From Octopus vulgaris (lineage: Eukaryota): 64,000 nucleotides of DNA. Below are positions 27,215 through 30,673 of this stretch, piece by piece (within the stretch, counting starts at the first letter, position 1; every line of letters starts with the position of its first letter). The stretch covers positions 118,668,001 through 118,732,000 of the forward strand of contig OX597822.1 in NCBI GenBank assembly GCA_951406725.2, given 5' to 3'. Position numbers and translations under genes: made by a program. Under the pieces are notes generated by a model. That model was not told the DNA's origin, did no database searches, and saw only the letters and a list, made by a program, of their open reading frames with translations.

Positions 27215-27528
27215 CCACAGCTTTATCAAATAAAGCAGTCCTACATTCAAAACAGTTATGGCTGGATCCTCTCTGACCCAACTGTCTGCTTGATTATGGC
27301 TAAATTACTTCATTATTATTTTAATGTAGGGTCATTAAATTCTATCTACAAATGACCGAGTCGTCTGTACCATCGATCCAGACACTGGAGCACAATGCAG
27401 TCTTCAGCTTATACTGTCAAAGTAAGTGATGACTGACAATACATAAAAGTGAGGGAAAACAGCAGAATAGTAATAACAATGCAGTAGACAGAGGAATGAT
27501 GAGGGAAAGAGAGGTGGTGTCAAACTAA
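27215..27528 (+). repeat. Inverted repeat arm A (PDCD6 intron 4)
   Basis: Reverse complement of 30371-30673 over ~300 bp. Confidence 0.92.
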
Positions 27529-27573
27529 TATTGGAAGATAAATTCTATTATCAAAATGGGAAAAGTTACTTAC

Positions 27574-27732
27574 CAAAAGTCTGCAGTGCTGCTTTCAATT
27601 CATTTCTGTCTATGGAGCCCGAACCATCAGTATCAAATGCTCGGAAAGTGTTTTGCCAATCGGTAACATATTTCCATAGTTGGGTGAATTCTTGAAAATT
27701 AATGGTACCAGAATTGTCACGATCAAACATAC
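27574..27732 (-). CDS. PDCD6: PDCD6/ALG-2 coding exon 4 (159 nt; EF2-EF3: [53 protein letters not shown](G))
   Basis: tttacag|GT ATG TTT ... ACT TTT G|gtaagt. Contains the ALG-2 WKY(I/V)TDWQN signature. Confidence 0.96.
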
Positions 27733-28644
27733 CTGTAAATAAAAACAGAAAAGAAAAAGTCCTCTCATATATCAGAATCAAACATCAAAGACATCCACAA
27801 ACATTAAGTGAGGCGACAGTAGTTATTCATAAAAACAAATTACTGCTGTTGCATTCTTCACTAAAGACAGTATTTGTTCAGGCAAACTTTCCACAGCCAG
27901 ATGCCTTTCCTGTCACCAACACTCACCTGTTTCCAAGCAAGGTAATATTTCCCCATGGTCTGACATGTTTTACATAGAAGATTAGAAATGGACAACATCC
28001 TTTCATCATCATCATTTAACGTCCGCTTTCCATGCTAGCATGGGTTGGACGATTTGACTGAGGACAGGCAAGCCAGGAGGCTGCAATCAGGCTCCAATCT
28101 TGATCTGGCAGAGTTTCTACAGCTGGATGCCCTTCCTAACGCCAACCACTCTGAGAGTGTAGTGGGTGCTTTTACATGCCACTGGCAAGGACCTCACTCG
28201 AATCTTTTTACACATGCCACCAGCACAGGTGCCTGTAAGGCGACGGTGGTAACGATCACGCTCGAATGGTGCTTTTTACGTGCCACCGGCACAGAGGCCA
28301 GTTATCTGCTCTGGCAACGATCACGCTCAGATGGTGCTCTTTGCACCCCGCTAGCACGGATGCCAGTCATCGAATTTGGTTTTGATTTTGATTTGTATAA
28401 CAATGATGCTTGTTTACAACCATCACATGATGTCGAGACAAAGGTTCACACAACCATACATACAAGGGTTGGTTGAAAAATTCACAGACTGATCAAGATA
28501 CTCTCATGGAATGTGACAAAAAATGAGGTTTGTAATCCACACATTTCTTCCATCAGAGTTGTAGCACCTGGATACCATTGGTGAAGAAGCTTTCAGCTTA
28601 TTTACCGAAAAAAGTCAACAGCAGATATAACATCATCAATGTGA

Positions 28645-29035
28645 TCTTGGGTTCAATCCCACTGCATGGCACATTGAGCAAATGTCTTCTACTGTAGCCC
28701 TGGGTTGATCAAAGCCACATGAGAGGATCTAGCAGGCAGAAACTGAAAGAAGCTCAGTGTTTTGTGTGTGTGTGTGTGTGTGTGTGTGTGTGTGTGTGTG
28801 TGTGTGTGTACTCGTTCTGACATCATGTGATGGTTGGTAACGAACATCCCTGTCCACACAAGCAATGTTCATTTCTGGTCTTTCATGAGAAAGATGTCTG
28901 ACCATGGGGAAATTCACCTTGCTCCAAAACAAATGAGGTTTGGCAGCAGGAAGGGTATCTGGCCAGAGAAAATCCACCACAACAAATTGTCTCCTCCATG
29001 CAATCATTGAAAATGGACATTAGAGAATAATGATG
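28645..29035 (+). mobile_element. CORE-type SINE variant with an RTE-like 3' tail (also ~24735-25030, 38745-39125, 56165-56560)
   Basis: Same head/CORE as the 1017 family, but ends in aggaagggYatctggcc..agaaa...ccatgcaa.catggaaaa.tggac.tta...gatga. Confidence 0.7.
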
Positions 29036-29188
29036 AACATCTCTTATGGGGGTCTTTCTTACATGATAGAAATTAGAAATGGCTAAACATATAAAAAGGT
29101 ACCAAAATAAGCTTAAACAAATCTTTACACATGTTGAACCACGACAAATGATTATATTAAAAGGAGGAAAGATAACTGTTTAACTTAC

Positions 29189-29233
29189 CAACCATCAATC
29201 GTACAGTTTCTGGGTTGAAAGGTGTCCATGTAC
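29189..29233 (-). CDS. PDCD6: PDCD6/ALG-2 coding exon 3 (45 nt; GTWTPFNPETVRLMV(G)), absent from the ORF track
   Basis: ttaccag|GT ACA TGG ACA CCT TTC AAC CCA GAA ACT GTA CGA TTG ATG GTT G|gtaagt. Matches ALG-2 GTWTPFNPVTVR. Confidence 0.94.
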
Positions 29234-30370
29234 CTGGTAATTAGATGTGAAAGGTTAGTAACATCAAAGTCAAAGTGTGTATGTATGTACATCTATGAGA
29301 GAGAGAAAGAGCGCGCGTGTGTGTGTGTGTGGATGTGTGTCTATGAGTGAGAGAGGGAGAGTATGTGTGTGTGTATATGAGAAAGAGAGAGAGAGATGAG
29401 AGAAATGAATGAGGCAACAGGGTCATCTGATAAAGCCAAGCAGTTAAATGACTCGTACACGAAGAAAGTACAGTTATTTTTATTTTTTTGTGTTTTACCA
29501 TTTATTCAAAGAATGGAAGAACAGTACCCATGAGCCTTTATTTTCCCAGAGCCTCCAAAAACTGGTGAGAGAGGGGGAAGGAGGATTTACTCAAACTGGA
29601 GAGCTGGCCTAAATGCTTGCAATAGGGTGAACCCCACTAAAGGTACCCAGGGACCAGGTGGGGATGTTAAACCAGAGAATGCATTTAGTCTATTGTCAGG
29701 AATTCAGAACACGAAGGGTTGGAAGAGATACCACTAGTTATTGCATCCAGCTCTAACAATTCTACAAGCTACTATCCACTTTATTTCATTGACTCCTAAA
29801 ATGAATGAAAGATTTAGCTGACCTTGATTGTATTTGAACTCAGCATGCAGATAGCCAGAACAAATACTACAAGATATTCTGTCCCCTACTCAATGTCTCG
29901 GTGCACCAAACTGATTCCTTTAGGTAGGCATGGAATATGAAAATTTTATGGGAAGGAGGAATTGAAGTGGGAACGATTATGCTTTTCTAGAAAGCAAAAC
30001 ATAAAAGGAAGTGAAATCAATACAAGAATAAAGGGAAACTTGTTTGTAGACCAAAATCCTTGGCAGAAAGTGTAACAGAACCTGTCTGAGGTTCTCTTAC
30101 AAACTTGGTGCTTTCAGGTGATCTAAACTGAAATCTTCCACCAAAACTGCATTATTAATTTATGTTCCAAACATTAGTTTAATAATGAAAAATTTATTTT
30201 ACCAAATTCTTTATCATTTTCAAAATTAATCGTAACAAAGGCAGCGTGTTTCAAAAGAAATATTGTAACAGAAGGCTCTAAACACTCAACGGTCATTTGG
30301 AAAATTTATTAATTCAAACAGAACTAGGTGGCACAGTCACGTTTATCAATCTTCTTTATTTGTTCTACAT

Positions 30371-30673
30371 TTAGTTTAACACTATCTCTCTTCCTCTCAT
30401 CATTCCCCTGTCTACTGTATTGTTATTATTATTCTGCTGCTTTCCCTCACTTTTATGTATTGTCAGTCATCACTTAGTTTGACAGTATAAGTCTGAAGAC
30501 TGCATTGTGCTCCAGTGTCTAGGTCTATGGTACAGACGGCTAGGTCATATGTAGATAGAATTTAATTTAATAATAATGAAGTAATTTAGCCATAATCAAG
30601 CAGACAGTTGGTCAGAGAGGATCCAGCTATAACTGTTTTGAATGTAGGACTGCTTTATTTGATAAAGCTGTGG
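30371..30673 (-). repeat. Inverted repeat arm B (PDCD6 intron 2)
   Basis: Reverse complement of 27215-27528. Confidence 0.92.

What the first reader, a model, noticed from the sequence alone, without database searches (positions are those of the whole stretch)
27215..30673. ~310-bp inverted repeat brackets exactly PDCD6 exons 3-4: candidate stop-free 204-nt circRNA, in-frame skipping switch and ADAR duplex
Seen: 27215-27528 and 30371-30673 are reverse complements (roughly 85-90% identical by eye). I found no third copy in the window. Arm A fills about two-thirds of the 478-bp intron 4 and begins ~45 nt from the exon 4 donor. The looped-out exons total 45+159=204 nt and are phase 1 on both sides. 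A back-splice joins TTT G|GT ACA and gives a circular frame with no stop codon and internal ATGs (EF2-EF3 concatemer). Linear skipping joins AAT G|GT TAT and gives an in-frame ALG-2 lacking 68 aa including EF3. Established: flanking reverse-complementary intronic sequences promote back-splicing and exon skipping, ADAR antagonises this, and coleoids edit heavily. Inference: this could be an editing-tunable splice switch on a Ca2+ sensor.
Basis: partly seen in the sequence, partly recalled or inferred. Interest (0 to 1): 0.8.

Follow-up and report, generated by a model that had tools for sequence, protein, structure and literature searches.

The report
Inverted intron copy in octopus PDCD6
A 310-base piece of one intron of an octopus calcium-sensor gene (PDCD6/ALG-2) has a backwards twin two exons away, likely a local DNA-copying scar that could fold the RNA into a loop, but the spliced sequences seen are the normal ones and nothing yet shows a circular RNA or a splicing switch.

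Summary
The inverted pair is real: 27215-27528 and 30371-30673, 285 of 315 columns identical, around PDCD6 exons 3-4, with junctions bridged by public contigs. It is not a pair of common repeats: the outer 206 bases have two copies in the genome. Arm A cuts off an older repeat without a target-site duplication, which points to a templated inverted insertion from intron 2 into intron 4. It is the strongest of 64 inverted pairs in this pre-mRNA, so transient pairing is likely. The stop-free circle and in-frame skip follow automatically from two symmetric exons. Spliced contigs show only exon 3-4-5 joins, and every listed arm difference is the other arm's allele; contigs drop rare forms, so trace circles or editing stay open. 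Mismatches show no excess of G-U pairs. One similar private pair turned up in a 1.2-Mb sample, and this scan noted the same layout in other animals. Verdict: an ordinary new case of a known layout, function not shown. The more conserved splicing feature lies outside the finding: two mutually exclusive versions of exon 2 (EF1), already annotated and seen in other lophotrochozoans.

The parts
27215..27528 (.). Arm A, in intron 4; likely the inserted (derived) copy
   Evidence: 90.5% reverse complement of arm B; its outer end falls where a dispersed repeat is cut off
30371..30673 (.). Arm B, in intron 2; likely the template copy
   Evidence: its outer flank 30660-30860 matched only itself in G000
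27416..27526 (.). Inner third of arm A (30373-30483 in arm B): fragment of an old purine-rich dispersed repeat
   Evidence: 38 matches of 73-91% identity elsewhere in G000, a lower bound
27154..27214 (+). Dispersed repeat fragment that ends at arm A's outer boundary
   Evidence: 4 other copies; 2 of 4 match up to 27214 and go on with a shared continuation that is absent here; loose ends of many contigs in X6 and X15 go on alike at 27211-27214
29189..29233 (-). PDCD6 exon 3, 45 nt
   Evidence: AG/GT ends; joined to exon 4 in contigs of 4 of 4 runs
27574..27732 (-). PDCD6 exon 4, 159 nt (EF2 loop to EF3)
   Evidence: 100% match to octopus PDCD6; joined to exon 5 in 4 of 4 runs
26986..27095 (-). 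PDCD6 exon 5, 110 nt
23404..23505 (-). PDCD6 exon 6, coding part
   Evidence: loose ends at 26986 read exon 6
52738..52799 (-). PDCD6 exon 2A, 62 nt (EF1 loop), mutually exclusive with 2B
   Evidence: spliced form identical to annotated isoform X1, P0121
41879..41940 (-). PDCD6 exon 2B, 62 nt (alternative EF1 loop)
   Evidence: spliced form identical to annotated isoform X2, P0122

Best explanation
The two arms are a private inverted duplication, likely made when about 310 bases of intron 2 were copied backwards into intron 4 during DNA repair or replication, and the pair likely zips up transiently in the pre-mRNA as an unselected ADAR substrate that would give at most trace circles or skipping while normal splicing prevails. 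Shown: two copies, orientation, exon geometry, normal splice joins. Inferred: direction and mechanism of the copy, pairing in vivo, editing, lack of selection.
For: Two copies only of the outer 206 nt in G000 (2 of 2 candidates); the inner third is an old repeat carried along. No target-site duplication (longest shared word 4-5 nt). Arm A begins where a dispersed repeat is cut off and the rest of that repeat is not on the other side. Predicted duplex -477 kcal/mol against -70 and -62 for each arm alone and -113 for the competing pair inside intron 3; top score of 64 pairs. Sense-strand mismatches: 5 G-U against 8 A-C, no excess of pair-keeping changes (p 0.87 one-sided). Contigs join exons 3-4-5 in 4 of 4 runs, and in X9 and X11 one contig runs across both joins. 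Background: 32 of 120 10-kb stretches hold an inverted pair of at least 150 nt and 85%, and one (L048) is a private two-copy pair like this one. Published: 296 circRNAs at low levels in octopus, and most editing in introns and UTRs (PMC9699675, passages).
Against: Substitutions are uneven: 1 in the outer ~125 columns, 16 in the inner ~180 (permutation p 0.03, 300 shuffles), which could reflect selection on the outer stem rather than gene conversion. The G-U test rests on 13 sites and has little power. No editing was seen in the contigs of the two spliced runs laid on arm A, so the pairing itself is not shown. No outgroup with an empty site was available, so the direction of copying rests on one junction. 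Private pairs of this size are uncommon (1 confirmed in 1.2 Mb).
Confidence: 0.62

Rival explanations
1. The duplication is wholly inert: intron 2 is spliced out or bound by protein before arm A is transcribed 2.8 kb later, so no duplex forms to any extent.
For: No listed difference in the arms other than the partner's alleles in X10 and X16, and adenosines at predicted A-C mismatches (27470, 27481) read as A in arm-B contigs; normal joins in 4 of 4 runs.
Against: The predicted duplex is long and far more stable than alternatives; contigs that join the 3' end of intron 2 to exon 3 exist in 4 of 4 runs (DNA in these runs is not excluded); contigs drop minority alleles.
Confidence: 0.22
2. One reading: the duplex is selected, drives back-splicing of exons 3-4 or their in-frame skipping to an ALG-2 lacking EF2-EF3, and ADAR editing tunes it.
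For: Textbook geometry, arm A 45 nt from the donor, exclusive partner, best pair of the gene; near-identical outer stem; ADAR is known to weaken such pairing (PMC8391333, passages).
Against: Frame and lack of stops are automatic for these exons. No excess of G-U. Normal joins are what the contigs assemble. 0 of 133 proteins fetched has the skip junction and no 109-aa octopus form is among 28 hits. The skip would remove EF3 and parts of all three binding pockets described for human ALG-2 (PMC5037681, passages). Circles are low in octopus (PMC9699675).
Confidence: 0.08
3. The duplex matters by holding the 3' end of intron 2 and so biases the choice between exons 2A and 2B.
For: Arm B lies in the intron into which both exons 2 splice; the two exons are real alternatives.
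Against: Two-version exon 2 is seen in gastropods and a brachiopod, so it is far older than a pair only ~6% diverged; arm B is 1,137 nt from the acceptor; a closer 179-nt, 92% pair brackets exon 2B itself.
Confidence: 0.04
4. The arms are two insertions of a rare mobile element, or terminal repeats of a decayed DNA transposon.
For: The inner third matches a dispersed repeat; the genome search skips very common words, so copies can be missed.
Against: Outer 206 nt have no other copy at E up to 1; no target-site duplication; the 'interior' holds conserved exons in the gene's own orientation.
Confidence: 0.04

Closest known systems
Intronic complementary sequences (reverse complementary matches) that flank circularised exons, repetitive such as Alu pairs or non-repetitive (PMC8391333, passages; Ivanov et al. 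2015 seen only as a citation)
   Same: Long reverse-complementary arms in the introns on both sides of internal exons, one arm close to the splice donor, strongest pair of the pre-mRNA
   Different: No back-splice product is shown here; the arms come from a private duplication and not from a repeat family
Template-switch and templated inverted insertions (PMC7954356, abstract and outline; PMC11724301, search listing)
   Same: A nearby stretch copied in reverse orientation, no target-site duplication, loss of sequence at the insertion site
   Different: About 310 nt from 2.8 kb away, longer than the 5-34 bp foldback insertions in the yeast listing; no empty-site outgroup to fix the event
Intronic ADAR substrates of octopus (PMC9699675, passages)
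   Same: Long imperfect duplex in introns, where that study found most A-to-I editing
   Different: Editing at this locus is not shown
Human ALG-2 splice isoform lacking Gly121-Phe122 (PMC5037681, passages)
   Same: Alternative splicing of PDCD6 that alters calcium and partner binding
   Different: A two-residue donor shift, not loss of EF2-EF3; the octopus alternative that is annotated is a swap of exon 2 (EF1)

Membership tests
circRNA locus driven by intronic complementary sequences | Reverse-complementary arms in both flanking introns | tested here: met
circRNA locus driven by intronic complementary sequences | Canonical acceptor and donor at the ends of the looped exons | tested here: met
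   AG before exon 3, GT after exon 4
circRNA locus driven by intronic complementary sequences | Cross-exon pair outcompetes pairs within one intron | tested here: met
   Computed only: -477 against -113 kcal/mol; top of 64 pairs
circRNA locus driven by intronic complementary sequences | Back-splice junction in RNA | tested here: inconclusive
   None among the 7 and 6 contigs laid from X10 and X16; contigs drop rare forms; the joint table was cut and swamped by repeats
circRNA locus driven by intronic complementary sequences | RNase R resistance and loss of the circle on deleting an arm | not testable with these tools
   needs bench work
ADAR-edited intronic duplex | Clusters of A-to-G on the transcribed strand, absent from matched DNA | tested here: inconclusive
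   All listed differences inside arm A in X10 and X16 are arm-B alleles; contigs only, no matched DNA
Inverted pair of mobile elements (SINE or MITE) | Arm is a multi-copy element over its length | tested here: not met
   2 copies of the outer 206 nt; only the inner ~110 nt is dispersed
Inverted pair of mobile elements (SINE or MITE) | Target-site duplication | tested here: not met
   longest shared word across the ends 4 and 5 nt
Local templated inverted insertion | Donor nearby, opposite orientation, two copies only, no target-site duplication | tested here: met
Local templated inverted insertion | Interrupted sequence at the insertion site | tested here: met
   dispersed repeat cut at 27214; rests on 2 of 4 genomic copies plus loose ends in two runs
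Local templated inverted insertion | Empty site in an outgroup genome | not testable with these tools
   no relative of G000 is held; the runs found are near-identical to the window
Mutually exclusive duplicated exons (exon 2A/2B) | Homologous, equal length, same phase; including both or neither breaks the frame | tested here: met
   62 nt each, 37 of 62 identical; both give 72 aa, neither 36 aa
Mutually exclusive duplicated exons (exon 2A/2B) | Both forms expressed | tested here: inconclusive
   annotated as X1 and X2 in three Octopus species; no 2B junction among the 15 joints shown of over 1,600

The most novel reading that the evidence does not exclude
A young private duplication has been recruited as a selected RNA stem whose near-identical outer part is kept paired, so that ADAR activity in octopus tissues tunes exon 3-4 looping in ALG-2, giving a translatable stop-free circle or an EF2-EF3-less form, combined with the ancient EF1 exon swap.
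Probability: 0.07. Interest if true: 0.65.

Novelty: new member of a known kind. Interest (0 to 1): 0.18.

Why it matters
As it stands it is one of probably thousands of inverted pairs in octopus introns, and matters little. It is a clean test locus all the same: a long duplex with one exclusive partner and unique sequence, so reads map without ambiguity, in an animal with heavy editing and few circles. It could show directly whether ADAR suppresses back-splicing in octopus. If a regulated circle or skip were found, it would link coleoid editing to splice control of a calcium sensor.

Tried and rejected
Sequencing-run search: no RNA holder listed on record; runs marked as RNA are guesses, though their contigs cross CT..AC introns. 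First laying (15 kb at 88% likeness) was swamped by repeats: 15 of over 1,600 joints shown, so it says nothing on skip, circle or exon 2B joints. Second laying: no back-splice or skip joint or loose end; this does not show absence. Run X15 has no cover at 27538-27601, and one of its contigs joins arm A's outer flank to arm-B-type sequence; run X6 has one contig of arm-A type over 27215-27458. Both may come from assembly across near-identical arms; an inversion allele or gene conversion is not excluded. The circRNA list of PMC9699675 was not in the supplements I could read; its 218-MB isoform annotation could not be opened and may bear on skipping and on exon 2B. Protein search with the C-terminal region found no 109-aa form among 28 hits; only 32 candidates were scored. 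Extending the old-repeat homology beyond the arms did not tell donor from copy. Intron 4 with exon 4 folds no better than shuffles (z 0.56). No Rfam match in the window. Literature searches: 'circPDCD6' 1 paper, human stroke plasma, listing only; 'PDCD6' + 'mutually exclusive exons' 3 and 'penta-EF-hand' + 'ALG-2' + 'mutually exclusive' 6, 5 listed, none by title or abstract start about an invertebrate exon 2 swap; 'circular RNA' + 'octopus' 54, 15 listed. One search used exon 2 coordinates off by 1-2 bases; one search has the corrected ones. Rejected: assembly artefact (junctions bridged), common-repeat pair, staggered-break inversion (exons 3-4 lie in the gene's orientation).

Full report
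Observation. The window holds the PDCD6 (ALG-2) gene of an octopus on the minus strand; exon 4 matches octopus PDCD6 at 100%. Stretches 27215-27528 and 30371-30673 are reverse complements over 315 columns, 285 identical, with 17 substitutions and 13 gap columns, and no third copy lies in the window. Arm A takes 314 of 478 bases of intron 4, 45 nt after the exon 4 donor; arm B lies in intron 2, 1,137 nt before exon 3. The pair is not an assembly error: contigs of public runs bridge arm A's inner junction (X6), its outer junction (X15) and both junctions of arm B (outer X9, X10, X11; inner X10, X11, X16).

What the arms are. A genome search with the whole arm gave two full-length matches and 38 partial ones of 73-91% identity, all to the inner third (a lower bound). 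The outer 206 nt matched only the two arms, even at E up to 1. Neither arm has a target-site duplication. Arm A begins exactly where a dispersed repeat (27154-27214) stops; 2 of the 4 other genomic copies found match to that point and go on with a shared continuation, as do loose ends in two runs, and that continuation is not found after arm A. I infer that arm A is the new copy, templated from intron 2 and inserted with loss of sequence, as in template-switch or repair insertions (PMC7954356, abstract and outline; PMC11724301, listing). The arms differ by about 6% (K2P). No outgroup genome was available, so direction and age are inferred.

How unusual. In the part of the pre-mRNA inside the window there are 64 inverted pairs of at least 80 nt; 47 bracket one or more exons; this pair scores highest (427 bits, next 389) and alone brackets exactly exons 3+4. 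In 120 stretches of 10 kb from G000 (100 evenly spaced, 20 neighbours on the same contig), 32 hold an inverted pair of at least 150 nt and 85% and 9 one of at least 250 nt and 88%. Five stretches had a pair with 100 nt or more not shared within the sample; I searched 4 of the 5 genome-wide: L048 has two full-length copies only, like this one (40 of 520 candidates scored), L050 and L047 are dispersed families, L133 is mostly dispersed; L076 was not searched. One event in 1.2 Mb scales, by my own arithmetic, to roughly two thousand per genome with a very wide range (tens to over ten thousand). So inverted pairs are commonplace here and private ones uncommon but not rare.

Does it act on the RNA? 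Computed pairing is strong: -477 kcal/mol, against -70 and -62 for the arms alone and -113 for the pair inside intron 3. Such arms promote back-splicing and ADAR weakens them (PMC8391333, passages). In octopus most editing falls in introns and UTRs, and circles are few and low: 296 kept after filtering (PMC9699675, main-text and supplement passages; the list itself was not in what I could read, and the isoform annotation could not be opened). In the four runs that carry spliced sequence, contigs join exons 3-4 and 4-5 in 4 of 4, and single contigs cross both joins in X9 and X11. On the narrow stretch all 7 contigs of X10 and all 6 of X16 were listed; their loose ends read exon 3, exon 6, arm B's flanks or unrelated repeat copies, and every listed difference inside the arm is an arm-B allele. 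Contigs drop rare forms, so this shows that the normal product is what assembles, not that circles, skips or editing are absent. No protein with the skip junction is among 133 fetched and no 109-aa form among 28 hits to the C-terminal region.

Selection. On the sense strand the substitutions give 5 G-U pairs, 8 A-C mismatches and 4 others; selection on pairing would favour G-U, and there is no excess (one-sided p 0.87, low power). Against my reading: substitutions are uneven, 1 in the outer ~125 columns and 16 in the inner ~180 (permutation p 0.03, 300 shuffles), and contigs with arm B's outer flank match arm A without a difference over up to 106 nt (X10). Gene conversion between close inverted copies explains this without function (my inference), and assembly merging may add to it, but selection on the outer stem is not excluded. 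The stop-free circle and in-frame skip carry no weight: exon 3, exon 4 and their sum are all multiples of three in phase 1, and the coding frame has no stop by definition. The skipped protein would lose EF2 and EF3, of which EF3 is one of two high-affinity calcium sites, and parts of all three binding pockets of human ALG-2 (PMC5037681, passages; Pfam EF-hand at 79-106), so it would more likely be non-functional than a tuned sensor (inference).

Outside the finding. The gene has two 62-nt versions of exon 2, at 52799-52738 and 41940-41879, 37 of 62 bases alike, both with canonical EF1 loops. Spliced in silico they give proteins identical to annotated isoforms X1 (P0121) and X2 (P0122); including both or neither breaks the frame. 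The same two forms are annotated in O. bimaculoides, and pairs that differ in this segment occur in Biomphalaria, Littorina, Gigantopelta and Lingula (the Lingula pair also differs at its C-terminus); a bryozoan X2 form closely resembles octopus 2B. Two literature searches listed nothing on this by title or abstract start. It is annotated, but may be undescribed as a conserved EF1 switch.

Verdict. Observation confirmed; interpretation partly supported in layout and unsupported in product. Most likely an unselected local inverted duplication that pairs transiently (0.62), or is inert (0.22); a selected editing-tuned switch has about 0.08. It works like an intronic complementary pair if it works at all; membership among circRNA loci is untested at its defining feature. 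Earlier notes of this scan describe the same layout in other animals; these are unchecked and did not set the score. New member of a known kind; interest 0.18.

Noticed in passing
window 52799-52738 and 41940-41879 (- strand): Two mutually exclusive versions of PDCD6 exon 2 swap the EF1 calcium loop; annotated as isoforms X1/X2 in three Octopus species, with like pairs in three gastropods and a brachiopod and a 2B-like form in a bryozoan. Possibly an ancient lophotrochozoan switch that my two searches did not find described.
   Followed up: partly
window 41497-41675 and 42292-42470: A 179-nt, 92% inverted pair of a common repeat brackets exon 2B with only about 620 nt between the arms; it could loop out 2B.
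   Followed up: no
window 27215-27350 against 27351-27528: Outer part of the arms nearly identical, inner part about 9% different (permutation p 0.03): recent gene conversion or selection.
   Followed up: partly
run X15, contig on window 27056-27528: One contig joins arm A's outer flank to arm-B-type sequence and runs on off the stretch; most likely assembly across the near-identical arms, but an inversion allele between the arms is not excluded.
   Followed up: no
L048:6340-6631 and 7308-7598 (G000:C1:80006340-80007598): Another private inverted duplication, 292 nt, 99% identical, about 680 nt apart, two full-length copies found.
   Followed up: partly
L031:1910-1855 (- strand), just beyond the window's end: Coding part of PDCD6 exon 1 (56 nt); the octopus protein has a very short N-terminal extension compared with most other molluscs in the alignment.
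   Followed up: partly
window 6021-6080: Short degenerate run of CCCTAA telomere-like units inside the contig.
   Followed up: no
window 10333-11628 (+): Two long open frames; the first has a weak endonuclease/exonuclease/phosphatase match just under the Pfam cut-off, likely a LINE remnant.
   Followed up: partly
window about 35340-36400, 38000-38230 and 43750-44200: Decayed mariner-like transposase fragments in PDCD6 introns, recognised by eye from translations and from memory; not scanned.
   Followed up: no
window 25301-25550: Minisatellite of 7/14/21-nt units in intron 5.
   Followed up: no
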